This document shows, one piece after another, positions 40,856 to 45,666 of a DNA stretch of 64,000 nucleotides; within the stretch, counting starts at the first letter, position 1, and every line of letters begins with the position of its first letter. Source of the DNA: Gammaproteobacteria bacterium. Its GTDB lineage: Bacteria > Pseudomonadota > Gammaproteobacteria > UBA4575. The stretch is taken from assembly GCA_965222615.1 (NCBI GenBank), contig CBDCUI010000009.1:214454-278453 (forward strand). Direction: 5' to 3'. The notes under the pieces are model-generated. The model was given only the letters and a program-made list of their open reading frames with translations. It was not told the origin of the DNA and did not search any database. A program made the position numbers and the translations under genes.

Positions 40856-42289
40856 CCGTATATGGCCTCCCTCCGTTTGCAAGCAAAATATTCAATGACA
40901 AAGTAGAGTCGACTGCACACGTATATTCGGCCTCTATTGATAGCAAGCGCTATTGATAGCAAGCGTTGATGCTGGGCCAGGATGGTGTATTCGCACCTAA
41001 GCACCCAATCGCTATTACGTACTCGAAGTACCTGGACATTCACGGGTTACGCTTAGGTCGGTTCGACCGGTTTGCCATCTAATAAATTACTTTGCAATCG
41101 TGGTAGATAATCCTCTTAAGTGTAAGTACATGTAATTTCGTTAATTGTTTTATTTCACATAAGCGCAAAGTTCGGATCATATTCACTTTCATCTCGCAAC
41201 ATTGCAAATGCCATACGCACGGTTTTATTCGCCAGTGCGACAGCGGCCACATTCGTATGTTTGGTTTTAGAAAGATGCGTGACCCACTGACTCAATCGAT
41301 CCTCTTTATGTTTCGCTTGCGAGACGACAGCCCTTGCTCCGTGAATGAGTAAGGTGCGCAGATAGGCATCGCCGCGTTTACTGATTTCCAGTAAACGCTC
41401 TTTATTGCCTGAACTGTGTTGTCTGGGGGTTAAGCCTAAGGCTGCCGCCATCTGGCGACTGCTCTTGTATTGTTTGGCATCGCCTACCGTGGCAATCAAT
41501 GCTGTGGCCACCATCGGCCCGACCCCTCGTAGCTGTTGTAGACGCTTGGTGACTTCGTTTTGTTTGGCCTGTTGTTCAATCGTTTGATCAAGTTCTTTTA
41601 CACGCGCATCTAATGTTAGTACGTCATGTTGAAGTCCCTGTAGTAAAGAACGAAAGTGTGGCGTTAAGCCATTCTCTCCGTCTTCTAACCAAGTCGGTAT
41701 TGCAGCGCGTAATCGATGTAACTGTTGGGGTGCGACTAAGCCATATTCACTCACTAAGCCTCGAATCTGATTGGCTTTAGCGGTGCGTTGTTGCACCAAA
41801 GTATTACGCACACGATGCAGGGCCTGAATGTCTTGCTGTTCAATACTTTTGATCGTGACAAAGCGCATGTTGGGGCGACTCATGGCTTCGCAAATGGCTT
41901 CGGCATCGTTGGCATCATTCTTGTTGCTCTTTACATAAGGCTTTACAAACTGGGGTGCAATCAATTTCACCACATAGCCTCGTTGTTGTAATACACGAGC
42001 CCAGTGGTGTGCACCCGAACAGGCCTCCATGCCAATCTCACCACCCGGTTCAACATGCTCCACTAATACCTTAAGCCACTTGCTTCGAGATAAGCGTCGT
42101 TTGAATACGCACTTTCCCGTGCGATCCACCCCGTGTAGTTGAAAAACATGCTTTGCCAAATCCACACCCATGCGTGTAATCTTGTTCATGTATGGTCTCC
42201 TTTATTCAAAGTAACTGGTTCTATCGCTTCCAGTATGGGCACATTACGATGCCGTTTAAAGTTGAGGGAGGCCATACCATTGCTATTGG
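40856..42289 (-). mobile_element. IS110-family insertion sequence, copy A (identical to copy B apart from a 16-bp internal tandem duplication)
   Basis: 1434 bp identical to 44249-45666 except for an extra TATTGATAGCAAGCGC near 40930. Flanks diverge outside these coordinates. About 300 bp of noncoding sequence lies 3' of the transposase. Confidence 0.8.
41155..42189 (-). CDS. IS110-family transposase (copy A)
   Basis: 344 aa. MNKITRMGVDLAKHVFQLHGVD N-terminus; LRGVGPMVATALIATVGD...AAALGLTPRQHSSGNK C-terminal motif. Confidence 0.85.
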   Translation of the reverse strand: MNKITRMGVDLAKHVFQLHGVDRTGKCVFKRRLSRSKWLKVLVEHVEPGGEIGMEACSGAHHWARVLQQRGYVVKLIAPQFVKPYVKSNKNDANDAEAICEAMSRPNMRFVTIKSIEQQDIQALHRVRNTLVQQRTAKANQIRGLVSEYGLVAPQQLHRLRAAIPTWLEDGENGLTPHFRSLLQGLQHDVLTLDARVKELDQTIEQQAKQNEVTKRLQQLRGVGPMVATALIATVGDAKQYKSSRQMAAALGLTPRQHSSGNKERLLEISKRGDAYLRTLLIHGARAVVSQAKHKEDRLSQWVTHLSKTKHTNVAAVALANKTVRMAFAMLRDESEYDPNFALM

Positions 42290-42426
42290 ACGAAAGCAGA
42301 CATAATTGAGGACAAATCAGGTTGGAATCAACAAACTACAAACATAAAATGACTGCTTACGACTGCCGATTCAATTGATCACCGCAACACTTTATCTTAA
42401 GTAACAAAAAAGATGGAGTGTGAAGG

Positions 42427-43587
42427 ATGGGCTATCGAACACGCATTTATTATAGCGAAGCACAAAAACAGGTGATGTGGGATCGCTGGCAGCAAGGTGA
42501 TTCTCTCCACACTATTGCGCGCCTTTTTAATCGTGGGCACTCATCGATACGACGGATACTTGCAGAAACAGGTGGCATTCGCCCTCCTCAACGAACACGA
42601 TCAGGCTTCGCACTGACGTTATCGGAACGCGAAGAAATTTCTCGTGGACTCGCACGGAATGTATCTTTGCGATCGATTGCTAAACAACTAAAGCGTTCAC
42701 CTTCCACCATCAGTCGCGAGATTCAGCGCAATGGCGGCATTGCGACATATCGCGCGAATGAAGCGGAACAAGCTGCGTGGGATCGGGCGCGCCGTCCTAA
42801 AACGTGTAAACTCGCTAGGAACAAAGACTTGTGTCATGCCGTAGCAACCAAGTTGCAATTACATTGGTCGCCGGAGCAGATTGCGGGTTGGTTAAAACGC
42901 ACCTATCCTAATGATGAGAGTAAGACCGTGTCGCATGAAACGATTTATCGCAGTTTGTTCATTCAAGCCCGCGGAACCCTGAAAAAAGAGTTACTTGCGT
43001 ATCTGCGCACGCAACGGACTTTACGTCAGTCAAAGAAAGCCAGTTTGAAAAACCAAGGCTTAGGTCAAATTAACCATGCGGTCTCCATTCGACAACGTCC
43101 GGCATCGGTGGAAGATCGTGCCGTACCGGGACATTGGGAAGGTGATCTCATTGCAGGCTCAAACAACAGTTATATTGCCACCTTGGTCGAACGACATACA
43201 CGCTATGTCATGCTAGCCAAAGTAAAGAATAAAGACACGAAGAGTGTCATCAATGCACTTATCAAGCAAGCGAAGAAATTGCCGAATGAGCTCTACAAAT
43301 CGTTAACCTGGGATCGCGGTAAAGAGATGGCCGATCATCAACGCTTTACCTTAGCGACCGAAATCAAAGTCTACTTTTGCGATCCACAAAGTCCGTGGCA
43401 ACGGGGTTCAAATGAAAATACAAATCTACTACTTAGACAGTACTTTCCAAAAGGAATGGACCTGTCTAACATTCATCAGAATCGATTGAATGCAGTAGCA
43501 AGACAATTAAACGAACGACCTAGGAAAACACTAGAATTTGAAACACCAGCAGAAAAATTTAACCAATGTGTTGCAGCGATCGGTTGA
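42427..43587 (+). CDS. IS30-family transposase
   Basis: 386 aa. N-terminal HTH (YSEAQKQVMWDRWQQGDSLHTIARLF); DDE region HWEGDLI...LTWDRGKEMADH...E; co-linear with IS30 InsI-type transposases. Confidence 0.85.
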   Translation: MGYRTRIYYSEAQKQVMWDRWQQGDSLHTIARLFNRGHSSIRRILAETGGIRPPQRTRSGFALTLSEREEISRGLARNVSLRSIAKQLKRSPSTISREIQRNGGIATYRANEAEQAAWDRARRPKTCKLARNKDLCHAVATKLQLHWSPEQIAGWLKRTYPNDESKTVSHETIYRSLFIQARGTLKKELLAYLRTQRTLRQSKKASLKNQGLGQINHAVSIRQRPASVEDRAVPGHWEGDLIAGSNNSYIATLVERHTRYVMLAKVKNKDTKSVINALIKQAKKLPNELYKSLTWDRGKEMADHQRFTLATEIKVYFCDPQSPWQRGSNENTNLLLRQYFPKGMDLSNIHQNRLNAVARQLNERPRKTLEFETPAEKFNQCVAAIG

Positions 43588-44230: not shown

Positions 44231-44248
44231 GTGATGATATTTTTATGA

Positions 44249-45666
44249 CCGTATATGGCCTCCCTCCGTTTGCAAGCAAAATATTCAATGACAAAGTAGA
44301 GTCGACTGCACACGTATATTCGGCCTCTATTGATAGCAAGCGTTGATGCTGGGCCAGGATGGTGTATTCGCACCTAAGCACCCAATCGCTATTACGTACT
44401 CGAAGTACCTGGACATTCACGGGTTACGCTTAGGTCGGTTCGACCGGTTTGCCATCTAATAAATTACTTTGCAATCGTGGTAGATAATCCTCTTAAGTGT
44501 AAGTACATGTAATTTCGTTAATTGTTTTATTTCACATAAGCGCAAAGTTCGGATCATATTCACTTTCATCTCGCAACATTGCAAATGCCATACGCACGGT
44601 TTTATTCGCCAGTGCGACAGCGGCCACATTCGTATGTTTGGTTTTAGAAAGATGCGTGACCCACTGACTCAATCGATCCTCTTTATGTTTCGCTTGCGAG
44701 ACGACAGCCCTTGCTCCGTGAATGAGTAAGGTGCGCAGATAGGCATCGCCGCGTTTACTGATTTCCAGTAAACGCTCTTTATTGCCTGAACTGTGTTGTC
44801 TGGGGGTTAAGCCTAAGGCTGCCGCCATCTGGCGACTGCTCTTGTATTGTTTGGCATCGCCTACCGTGGCAATCAATGCTGTGGCCACCATCGGCCCGAC
44901 CCCTCGTAGCTGTTGTAGACGCTTGGTGACTTCGTTTTGTTTGGCCTGTTGTTCAATCGTTTGATCAAGTTCTTTTACACGCGCATCTAATGTTAGTACG
45001 TCATGTTGAAGTCCCTGTAGTAAAGAACGAAAGTGTGGCGTTAAGCCATTCTCTCCGTCTTCTAACCAAGTCGGTATTGCAGCGCGTAATCGATGTAACT
45101 GTTGGGGTGCGACTAAGCCATATTCACTCACTAAGCCTCGAATCTGATTGGCTTTAGCGGTGCGTTGTTGCACCAAAGTATTACGCACACGATGCAGGGC
45201 CTGAATGTCTTGCTGTTCAATACTTTTGATCGTGACAAAGCGCATGTTGGGGCGACTCATGGCTTCGCAAATGGCTTCGGCATCGTTGGCATCATTCTTG
45301 TTGCTCTTTACATAAGGCTTTACAAACTGGGGTGCAATCAATTTCACCACATAGCCTCGTTGTTGTAATACACGAGCCCAGTGGTGTGCACCCGAACAGG
45401 CCTCCATGCCAATCTCACCACCCGGTTCAACATGCTCCACTAATACCTTAAGCCACTTGCTTCGAGATAAGCGTCGTTTGAATACGCACTTTCCCGTGCG
45501 ATCCACCCCGTGTAGTTGAAAAACATGCTTTGCCAAATCCACACCCATGCGTGTAATCTTGTTCATGTATGGTCTCCTTTATTCAAAGTAACTGGTTCTA
45601 TCGCTTCCAGTATGGGCACATTACGATGCCGTTTAAAGTTGAGGGAGGCCATACCATTGCTATTGG
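44249..45666 (-). mobile_element. IS110-family insertion sequence, copy B
   Basis: 1418 bp identical to copy A. Flanked on the left by ...TTTTATGA and on the right by CCGAAAGCGGACAT..., resembling the copy A flanks ...TTAAATGT / ACGAAAGCAGACAT. Confidence 0.8.
44532..45566 (-). CDS. IS110-family transposase (copy B, identical to copy A)
   Basis: 344 aa, 100% identical to the 41155-42189 product. Confidence 0.85.
   Translation of the reverse strand: MNKITRMGVDLAKHVFQLHGVDRTGKCVFKRRLSRSKWLKVLVEHVEPGGEIGMEACSGAHHWARVLQQRGYVVKLIAPQFVKPYVKSNKNDANDAEAICEAMSRPNMRFVTIKSIEQQDIQALHRVRNTLVQQRTAKANQIRGLVSEYGLVAPQQLHRLRAAIPTWLEDGENGLTPHFRSLLQGLQHDVLTLDARVKELDQTIEQQAKQNEVTKRLQQLRGVGPMVATALIATVGDAKQYKSSRQMAAALGLTPRQHSSGNKERLLEISKRGDAYLRTLLIHGARAVVSQAKHKEDRLSQWVTHLSKTKHTNVAAVALANKTVRMAFAMLRDESEYDPNFALM

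What the first reader, a model, noticed from the sequence alone, without database searches (positions are those of the whole stretch)
40856..45666. Two identical IS110-family copies inserted next to similar flanking motifs; candidate bridge-RNA-coding noncoding ends
Copies A (40856-42289) and B (44249-45666) are identical except for a 16-bp tandem duplication. Both sit between related flanks (…TTAAATGT | ACGAAAGCAGACAT and …TTTTATGA | CCGAAAGCGGACAT). AGCGGACAT-type motifs recur elsewhere in the backbone segment (52110, 51836 inverted), consistent with sequence-specific, terminal-repeat-less insertion as known for IS110-family elements. Each copy has about 300 bp of noncoding DNA 3' of the transposase (40856-41154; 44249-44531) and element 1 has 260 bp (40379-40640). 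Under established IS110/IS1111 biology these are where a target- and donor-guiding bridge RNA would be encoded.
Basis: inference. Interest (0 to 1): 0.5.

Follow-up and report, generated by a model that had tools for sequence, protein, structure and literature searches.

The report
IS1111-type insertion sequences with bridge RNAs
Two identical copies of a jumping gene, plus a distant cousin beside them, each encode a structured guide RNA downstream of the transposase whose loops match both the landing site and the element's own ends; this is a clear new example of a mechanism described in 2024, not a new mechanism.

Summary
Copies A and B are identical except for a 16-bp tandem duplication. 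Each encodes a 344-aa DEDD transposase on the minus strand.

Sixty-eight relatives fix the true ends at CAATGGT…CCATATAC. That makes A 40858-42282 and B 44251-45659.

- **Structure.** The 3' non-coding region holds a ~180-nt conserved RNA. 96% of cells are paired, 18 pairs show compensatory changes, and 0 of 500 shuffles reach this.
- **Target loop.** One internal loop matches the target. Its 5' side is complementary to GGACATT and its 3' side has the same sense as AATAG-C-G.
- **Donor loop.** A second loop matches the element's own ends (ATGGT and ATATAC).
- **Covariation.** Guides track flanks across relatives (0 of 10,000 permutations).
- **Independent detection.** A covariance model built without the window finds exactly A, B and the neighbouring element E1.

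The target is a 28-nt REP-like palindrome. E1 hits it 5 nt away, and IS30-family elements sit at its centre.

These are new members of the IS1111 group with bridge/seekRNAs. RNA expression and activity are untested.

The parts
44251..45659 (-). IS copy B, 1409 bp counting the shared C at both junctions
   Evidence: Ends CAATGGT...CCATATAC were set from the family alignment of 68 relatives. It is identical to A except for the duplication.
40858..42282 (-). IS copy A, 1425 bp
44532..45566 (-). Transposase gene of B (344 aa). The A copy is at 41155-42189.
   Evidence: Pfam PF01548 + PF02371. NCBIfam NF033542 'IS110 family RNA-guided transposase', 347 bits against a cut-off of 140. D10, E55, D92, D95 and S260 in GLTPRQHSSG are present.
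44301..44479 (-). Bridge/seek RNA of copy B (outer stem P1 to P1)
   Evidence: Covariance-model hit of 172 bits, E 2e-43, from a model built without the window. Consensus structure. The consensus-constrained fold is -49.9 kcal/mol against an MFE of -50.2.
40908..41102 (-). Bridge/seek RNA of copy A
   Evidence: Covariance-model hit of 158.9 bits, E 5.5e-40. It has a 19-nt stretch where the model has 3 positions, in the distal loop of the donor arm.
44409..44420 (-). Target loop, 5' side (GUGAAUGUCCAG), complementary to the right-target top strand GGACATT. The A copy is at 41032-41043.
   Evidence: RT+1..+8 are Watson-Crick to these columns in 53-92% of 60 relatives. Coordinates.
44386..44395 (-). 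Target loop, 3' side (GUAAUAGCGA), same sense as the left target AATAG + C + G. The A copy is at 41009-41018.
   Evidence: LT-1..-5 are identical to these columns in 87-98% of relatives, and this gives the top mutual-information pairs.
44396..44408 (-). Hairpin closing the target loop (GUACUUCGAGUAC). The A copy is at 41019-41031.
   Evidence: In helix 82-85/94-97, 3 of 4 pairs show compensatory change.
44356..44371 (-). Donor loop, 5' side (GCGAAUACACCAUCCU). ACCAU is complementary to left-end positions 3-7 (ATGGT). The A copy is at 40979-40994.
   Evidence: LE+3..+7 complement is 0.96-1.00, with covariation at LE+6 and LE+7.
44311..44320 (-). Donor loop, 3' side (AAUAUACGUG). AUAUAC has the same sense as the last 6 nt of the right end. 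The A copy is at 40918-40927.
   Evidence: RE-1..-6 identity is 0.99-1.00. L014 changes both sides together.
40934..40965 (-). 16-nt tandem duplication, present only in copy A (element strand CGCUUGCUAUCAAUAG x2)
   Evidence: It lies in the length-variable distal hairpin of the donor arm, outside both guides.
45641..45653 (-). Left subterminal inverted repeat TATGGCCTCCCTC, 7 nt from the end. The right one is at 44254-44266. In A they are at 42264-42276 and 40861-40873.
45660..45680 (-). Left target of B (ATGTCCGCTTTCGGCCAATAG, element strand). The right target is 44245-44250 (GGTCAT). For A they are 42283-42303 and 40852-40857 (GGACAT).
   Evidence: Together they rebuild a 28-nt palindromic unit.
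39263..40633 (+). Element 1 (E1), a second IS1111-type element. Its transposase gene is 39335-40378; the transposase is 41% identical to that of A/B.
40414..40590 (+). Bridge/seek RNA of E1. The target-loop sides are 40472-40485 and 40501-40515.
   Evidence: Covariance-model hit of 30.9 bits, E 1e-6. Guide/right-target covariation in 34 metagenomic relatives gives 0 of 10,000 permutations.
42363..43595 (+). IS30-family element sitting in the centre of another palindromic unit (halves at 42349-42362 and 43596-43609)
51835..52114 (+). Palindromic unit (51835-51848 and 52101-52114) split by a 252-bp IS30-derived miniature element
   Evidence: I2-I4.

Best explanation
A and B are two recent, independent insertions of one IS1111-group insertion sequence (IS110 family). 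The element encodes a DEDD/Ser recombinase. Downstream of it, on the same strand, it encodes a ~180-nt bridge RNA (seekRNA).

The RNA has an outer stem enclosing two arms:
- **Target arm.** An internal loop reads the target. Its 5' side pairs with the top strand to the right of the crossover (GGACATT). Its 3' side pairs with the bottom strand to the left (AATAG), running through the shared C.
- **Donor arm.** A second loop reads the joined ends of the excised circle in the same way. Its 5' side pairs with ATGGT of the left end. Its 3' side pairs with the strand opposite ATATAC of the right end.

Recombination at the single shared C places the element, in one orientation, at position 21|22 of a 28-nt REP-like palindrome (ATGTCCGCTTTCGGCCAATAG-C-GGACAT). 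Joining the ends with one C creates a promoter (TTGCAA-16 nt-TACAAT) that would drive the transposase gene and the RNA from the circle.

Shown here: the protein family, the ends, the conserved RNA structure, guide-to-DNA complementarity, and its covariation.

Inferred from published IS1111/IS621 work: the circle intermediate, the junction promoter being used, RNA binding by the recombinase, and current activity.
For: - **Copies.** Identical over 1409 bp while their flanks differ.
- **Protein.** PF01548 + PF02371; NF033542 at 347 bits; GLTPRxxxSG and the DEDD residues aligned to IS621 (8wt6) and ISCro4 (9t56).
- **Architecture.** 13-bp subterminal inverted repeats, a 7-nt left extension, and a long 3' non-coding region.
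- **RNA structure.** On 64 sequences, 96.2% of cells are paired, 18 pairs and 175 cells show changes on both sides, 0 of 500 shuffles reach this, and slid controls reach at most 44.6% paired. G-U pairs are frequent (for example 22 at columns 60-116). That fits an RNA read from the transposase strand, because the opposite strand would carry A-C mismatches there.
- **Target guides.** LT-1..-5 identity is 0.87-0.98 and RT+1..+8 complementarity is 0.53-0.92. Own flanks score 9.68 against 7.41 of 14 for non-own flanks, with 0 of 10,000 permutations reaching the own score.
- **Donor guides.** 0.96-1.00, with covariation at LE+6, LE+7 and RE-3.
- **Independent model.** It finds only A, B and E1 in 64 kb.
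- **The window's own RNA.** It reaches the consensus fold within 0.3 kcal/mol of its MFE.
- **Site match.** Copy A's rebuilt site AATAG-C-GGACATT matches the guides 13 of 13; B's matches 11 of 13.
- **Junction promoter.** TACAAT forms in 65 of 69 family members when the ends are joined with one C.
Against: - No expression data. No sigma-70-like promoter lies on the element strand inside the integrated copy.
- Single-sequence folds are not better than shuffles (z -1.0 to -1.7), and the MFE is not the consensus fold.
- The left-target guide is short: 5 nt plus the core.
- Copy B's right flank has 2 mismatches to the guide.
- Copy A carries a 16-nt duplication in the donor arm whose effect is unknown.
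- RNAalifold pairs the 5' donor guide with an upstream GAUGG (helix P2), so that guide may not be free.
- The one-C core is inferred from occupied and unoccupied sites in different genomes, not from an empty allele of these two sites.
Confidence: 0.9

Rival explanations
1. The conserved 3' region is a DNA-level feature, such as transposase-binding sites or a folded single-strand end, and not a guide RNA. On this view its similarity to the flanks arises only because relatives share both the ends and the target.
For: Much of the region is nearly invariant. Outer stem P1 never covaries. Most relatives use similar targets, so non-own flanks already score 7.41 of 14.
Against: Helices keep pairing through 175 double changes and many G-U pairs, which fits one transcribed strand. 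Relatives with very different flanks have matching guides: L077 GATACAC/GTGTATC, L079 AACTGGC/GCCAGTT, and in the E1 family L099 and L094. Permutation tests give 0 of 10,000 in both families. Published IS1111 elements require this region as RNA, supplied in trans (PMC11187229).
Confidence: 0.04
2. A and B are not separate transpositions. Instead, one insertion was copied together with its flanks by a segmental duplication or by recombination within the IS pile.
For: The two sites share 19 of 21 left-flank bases. The region is heavily rearranged, with 150-bp duplications and paralogous arms.
Against: The similarity stops at the 28-nt unit on both sides. The flanks differ at 2 of 21 and 1 of 6 positions, while 1409 bp of element differ at none. 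So the units are older than the insertions.
Confidence: 0.08
3. The elements are bridge-RNA insertion sequences, but at least copy A is now defective because the 16-nt duplication disrupts the donor arm. Only B would then supply working RNA, possibly in trans.
For: The duplication lies inside the donor-arm hairpin. The covariance-model score drops from 172 to 158.9 bits.
Against: This hairpin varies in length by up to about 6 nt among relatives, and both guides and stems P1 and P6 are untouched.
Confidence: 0.3

Closest known systems
IS1111-group elements with a seekRNA: ISEc11, ISPa11, ISKpn4, ISPst6 (Siddiquee et al. 2024, PMC11187229)
   Same: - DEDD transposase of 330-350 aa with the GL-P----SG motif.
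- Subterminal inverted repeats and a 7-nt left extension.
- A long non-coding region downstream of the transposase gene.
- An RNA with a top-strand match placed 5' of a bottom-strand match, the two overlapping at the crossover.
- A promoter formed at the circle junction.
- No target duplication.
   Different: The target differs: here it is a 28-nt palindrome, ATGTCCGCTTTCGGCCAATAGCGGACAT. The guide sequences differ too. The closest transposases found in public data are 66-85% identical and unnamed. I could not compare sequence directly with the published elements. RNA production and function are not shown here.
IS621 bridge RNA, IS110 group (Durrant et al. 2024, PMC11208160; structures 8wt6-8wt9)
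   Same: Two-loop logic. One loop reads the target and one reads the donor, and each loop reads the two DNA strands on either side of a shared core. The catalytic residues are conserved.
   Different: - The RNA is 3' of the gene, not 5'.
- The subterminal repeats are long.
- The donor guides lie in a multi-branch junction rather than a simple internal loop, as that paper noted for many IS1111 members.
- The core appears to be a single C rather than CT.
- The protein match is only E 6.5e-10, mostly in the C-terminal domain.
ISPa11, ISPpu9 and ISPpu10: IS110-family elements that insert into REP palindromes (PMC11187229; PMC12288879 abstract)
   Same: The target is a short repeated extragenic palindrome. 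The small RNA gene lies downstream of the transposase gene (Ssr9 in ISPpu9).
   Different: The palindrome sequence is different. Here IS30-family elements also occupy the same palindrome, and a second IS1111 lineage hits it 5 nt away. No solo RNA copies are present in this window.
[quoted passage not shown] 10; paper not held)
   Same: They belong to the IS1111 group and insert at one position, in one orientation, in a sequence associated with other mobile elements.
   Different: Plasmid-borne relatives are under 60% identical, except for three Pseudomonas and Azotobacter records. Here the target is a free-standing palindrome that IS30-type elements also use, not the other element's own repeat. 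That last point is my reading and is not settled.

Membership tests
IS110 family (DEDD transposase) | N-terminal RuvC-like DEDD domain (PF01548) plus C-terminal PF02371 domain with a conserved Ser | tested here: met
   Pfam E 2e-20 and 3.2e-24. NF033542 at 347 bits against a cut-off of 140. D10, E55, D92, D95 and S260 are present, and GLTPRQHSSG aligns to GLTPRRYESG of IS621.
IS1111 group | Subterminal inverted repeats of 7-17 bp, with short extensions beyond them | tested here: met
   TATGGCCTCCCTC / GAGGGAGGCCATA, 13 bp and perfect, sits 6-7 nt from the left end and 3-4 nt from the right end. It is conserved across 68 relatives.
IS1111 group | The longer non-coding region lies downstream of the transposase gene | tested here: met
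   281 nt (B) or 297 nt (A) on the 3' side against 93 nt on the 5' side.
IS1111 group | Site- and orientation-specific insertion without a target duplication | tested here: met
   A and B are at the same position and in the same orientation in two copies of one 28-nt unit. Sixty relatives share LT ...AAAG and RT GGAC.... Only one C is shared at the two junctions.
Bridge RNA / seekRNA | Conserved structured RNA in the non-coding end | tested here: met
   Eighteen covarying pairs, 0 of 500 shuffles. Independent covariance-model hits. No Rfam family matches.
Bridge RNA / seekRNA | A loop with two segments matching opposite strands of the target on either side of the crossover | tested here: met
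   Copy A's site matches 13 of 13 and B's 11 of 13.
Bridge RNA / seekRNA | A second loop matching the donor (the joined element ends) | tested here: met
   ACCAU against ATGGT of the left end, and AUAUAC the same as the right end. There is covariation in L059/L069, in the six CAATGGT members, and in L014. Caveat: the 5' guide can also pair within the RNA (P2).
Bridge RNA / seekRNA | The RNA is transcribed, binds the recombinase, and is required for excision and insertion | not testable with these tools
   There is no transcriptome and no assay. A junction promoter is predicted only, and no internal promoter-like site is found.
IS1111 group | Circular intermediate with abutted ends | not testable with these tools
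   Inferred from TTGCAA-16/17 nt-TACAAT, which forms only when the ends are joined with one C, in 65 of 69 members.

The most novel reading that the evidence does not exclude
The 28-32-nt palindrome is a shared landing pad on which three unrelated or diverged transposition systems have converged. Two are bridge-RNA lineages whose transposases are only 41% identical and whose guides are set 5 nt apart. The third is an IS30-family DDE element that enters at the exact centre. All five units in this window are occupied, and relatives in distant Proteobacteria use the same unit.

In addition, helix P2 (GAUGG pairing with the donor guide CCAU) could be an RNA mimic of the left end that masks the donor loop until the donor DNA displaces it. 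That would make it a built-in switch, which I did not find described in the bridge RNA papers I read.
Probability: 0.2. Interest if true: 0.55.

Novelty: new member of a known kind. Interest (0 to 1): 0.33.

Why it matters
This result gives a fully annotated natural bridge-RNA element: exact ends, both guide loops, the core and the target. It also gives about 100 natural guide/target pairs from two related lineages. These could help define the pairing rules and mismatch tolerance of IS1111-type recombinases, which are less studied than IS621. As one example, the mismatch at right-target position 3 is common in nature.

It also explains the local genome structure. The window holds a pile of insertion sequences built on repeated copies of one palindrome. 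None of this changes current understanding of the mechanism.

Tried and rejected
- **Rfam 15 scan** of 38500-48000 at E up to 1 gave only chance hits: a snoRNA at 25 bits and JA03. No bridge RNA family matched.
- **Near-identity DNA searches** of A/B and E1 against plasmids gave no match.
- **Exact-protein contig look-up** for P0001 found nothing on record.
- **Whole-NCR and single-RNA MFE folds** were not informative, with z -1.0 to -1.8. Only the comparative analysis resolved the structure.
- **First reading of the target.** I initially read AGCGGACAT as the outer tip of 42-bp IS30 inverted repeats. I now favour an independent palindromic unit, for three reasons. The inner 28 bp of the IS30 repeats match each other far better than the outer 14 bp (L059). 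E. coli IS30's terminus, recalled from memory, aligns with the inner boundary. Free-standing units occur without IS30 in relatives' flanks. This is not settled, and no target duplication is visible under either reading.
- **Literature.** Text searches for the palindrome sequence, and for IS1111 + IS30 + palindromic, returned nothing relevant. Partridge & Hall 2003 is not held.
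Full report
**1. Observation**

A global alignment of the two regions shows that 40856-42289 and 44249-45666 are identical except for one 16-nt insertion in copy A. On the + strand this is 40934-40949, a tandem repeat of CTATTGATAGCAAGCG. Outside these runs the sequences are unrelated except for short related flanks.

AAGCGGACAT at up to one mismatch occurs 11 times in the window, against 3.3 +/- 1.6 in shuffles. 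This includes 51835-51844 (-) and 52105-52114 (+).

**2. The elements**

Each copy carries a 344-aa ORF on the minus strand (41155-42189 and 44532-45566).
- It has Pfam DEDD_Tnp_IS110 and Transposase_20 domains.
- It scores 347 bits on NCBIfam NF033542, 'IS110 family RNA-guided transposase', against a cut-off of 140.
- D10, E55, D92 and D95 are present, as is S260 within GLTPRQHSSG. The motif aligns with GLTPRRYESG of the solved IS621 and ISCro4 recombinases.

The neighbouring element E1 (transposase gene 39335-40378, + strand) has the same domains. Its transposase is 41% identical to that of A/B.

**3. True ends**

I fetched 80 genomic loci encoding relatives at 66-83% identity. These share subterminal inverted repeats (ATGGACTCCTCCTC in most, TATGGCCTCCCTC here). 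Their conserved termini are CAATGG[G/T]ATGG... on the left and ...CCATATAC on the right. Sequence outside these points varies between loci.

The 7-nt left extension is the one described for the IS1111 group (PMC11187229). Hence:
- A = 40858-42282 and B = 44251-45659.
- Unoccupied sites in relatives read ...AAAG-C-GGAC..., while occupied ones read ...AAAG|CAATGG...ATATAC|GGAC.... So one C is shared between target and element.

**4. The RNA**

The 3' non-coding regions of the relatives align well over about 180 nt. RNAalifold and a pair count on 64 sequences give:

| Measure | Result |
|---|---|
| Cells paired | 96.2% |
| Pairs with changes on both sides | 18 |
| Cells with changes on both sides | 175 |
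| Shuffles reaching these values | 0 of 500 |
| Cells paired when partners are slid | at most 44.6% |

The fold has three parts:
- an invariant outer stem, P1;
- a target arm made of P3, P4, an internal loop and the P5 hairpin;
- a donor arm, the P6 hairpin, flanked by single-stranded segments in a multi-branch junction.

G-U pairs are frequent. They fit an RNA read from the transposase strand, because the opposite strand would carry A-C mismatches at those positions.

A covariance model built from 62 relatives, without the window, finds exactly three hits in the 64-kb window:
- B at 172 bits;
- A at 158.9 bits;
- E1's non-coding region at 30.9 bits (E 1e-6).

The window's own RNA reaches the consensus fold at -49.9 kcal/mol, against an MFE of -50.2. 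Single-sequence folds alone are not significant (z about -1.7).

**5. Guides**

Mutual information between flank positions and alignment columns picks out two stripes.

| Element side | Loop segment | Relation | Agreement across 60 relatives |
|---|---|---|---|
| Left target, last 5 nt | Target loop, 3' side | Same sense, then an invariant C | 87-98% |
| Right target, first 8 nt | Target loop, 5' side | Watson-Crick | 53-92% |

Own flanks score 9.68 of 14 against 7.41 for other loci's flanks. None of 10,000 permutations reaches the own score. Relatives with unusual flanks have matching guides, for example L077 and L079.

The donor loop behaves the same way:
- Its 5' side is complementary to left-end positions 3-7 (0.96-1.00). 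There are joint changes in L059/L069 and in the six members with CAATGGT.
- Its 3' side equals the last six bases of the right end (0.99-1.00). L014 changes both sides together.

In this window the guides read as follows.

| Guide | Sequence | Copy B | Copy A |
|---|---|---|---|
| Target loop, 5' side | GUGAAUGUCCAG | 44409-44420 | 41032-41043 |
| Target loop, 3' side | GUAAUAGCGA | 44386-44395 | 41009-41018 |
| Donor loop, 5' side | ...ACCAU... | 44356-44371 | 40979-40994 |
| Donor loop, 3' side | AAUAUACGUG | 44311-44320 | 40918-40927 |

The rebuilt site of A, CCAATAG-C-GGACATT, matches the target guides 13 of 13. That of B, CCAATAG-C-GGTCATA, matches 11 of 13. One of B's two mismatches falls at right-target position 3, the least constrained of the first seven right-target positions in the family.

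The 16-nt duplication of A lies in the length-variable distal hairpin of the donor arm, away from the guides and stems. Its effect is unknown.

**6. Target and context**

Joined, the flanks form a 28-nt imperfect palindrome, ATGTCCGCTTTCGGCCAATAGCGGACAT.
- Similar free-standing units occur in the flanks of relatives from other genomes, so the unit behaves like a REP-type repeat.
- In the window every unit is occupied.
  - E1 sits at position 16|17.
  - A and B sit at 21|22.
  - An IS30-family element (42363-43595) sits at the centre, 14|15.
  - A 252-bp IS30-derived miniature element (51849-52100) sits at the centre of another unit.
- IS30-type elements flank relatives in L018, L040, L056 and L059.
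- The 6.4-kb pile at 39262-45659 lies between arms (39204-39261 and 45666-45735). Elsewhere in the window these arms, inverted, flank a single unit.

Whether the outer 14 nt belong to the palindrome or to long IS30 repeats is not fully settled. I favour the palindrome.

**7. Element 1 (E1)**

Thirty-four metagenomic relatives of E1 share the same RNA plan. Their 5' loop segment is complementary to the right flank at 0.71-0.97 over 8 nt. Own flanks score 7.18 of 10 against 6.01 for non-own, with 0 of 10,000 permutations reaching the own score.

E1's own guides are CUGCUCCGCUUUGA and AUCGACCCAAUG. They match CAAAGCGGA and CGACCCAA of its site.

**8. Mechanism**

By analogy with ISEc11 and IS621, the expected cycle is as follows:
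1. The element excises as a circle.
2. The recombinase, bound to the RNA, pairs the donor loop with the joined ends and the target loop with the palindrome.
3. Strands are exchanged at the shared C.

Joining the ends with one C creates TTGCAA-16 nt-TACAAT here, and TACAAT in 65 of 69 relatives. No promoter-like site lies on the element strand of the integrated copy. This fits expression from the circle or by read-through.

These steps are inferred, not shown.

**9. Verdict**

These are new members of a known kind. The shared palindrome and the P2 pairing of the donor guide are the only points that go beyond what the papers I read describe. Both remain open.

Noticed in passing
42363-43595; 51849-52100: An IS30-family element (transposase gene 42427-43587, NF033563 at 295 bits) and a 252-bp miniature derivative with the same inverted repeats each sit at the exact centre of a 28-nt palindromic unit. 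No target duplication is visible.
   Followed up: partly
39204-39261 vs 52100-52157; 45666-45735 vs 51780-51849: These are inverted paralogous arms, 98% and 97% complementary. The 6.4-kb pile of insertion sequences lies between the same two arms that elsewhere flank a single unit plus the miniature IS30. This suggests a duplicated locus, or integration by recombination at the unit.
   Followed up: partly
43632-44028: A 92-nt remnant of E1's 3' end (43789-43880, lacking both RNA loops) lies inside a roughly 150-bp direct duplication (43632-43790 and 43879-44028). The origin is unexplained.
   Followed up: no
RNA of A/B: 44441-44445 with 44359-44363 (alignment A1 columns 34-38 with 131-135): Helix P2 pairs GAUGG with the 5' donor guide CCAU(C/U). 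GAUGG resembles the left-end DNA sequence that the guide reads. In L059 and L069 the helix changes together with left-end position 6. It may mask the donor guide.
   Followed up: partly
L030:2919-3005; L005:1334; L009:3830; L021:55; L034:969; L069:1004: Free-standing, unoccupied copies of the palindromic unit occur in the flanks of related elements from other bacteria. L030 has two copies 55 nt apart.
   Followed up: partly
30661-33313: Tandem repeats of about 414 bp, at least 7 copies, lie inside the 2840-aa ORF (30167-38689).
   Followed up: no
45811-46404 and 46793-47386: A 594-nt inverted repeat, 94% complementary, encloses 388 nt. Each arm carries a short ORF (138 and 135 aa) with no Pfam match.
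   Followed up: no
transposase residues 123-260 (44532-45566, minus strand): There is a sub-threshold NCBIfam match to the TIGR-Tas RNA-guided endonuclease model: 31 bits against a cut-off of 100.
   Followed up: no
outside the window (protein P0005): A second transposase, 84% identical, is recorded on the same 1.12-Mb contig as the exact match P0001. The genome therefore carries a further related element.
   Followed up: no
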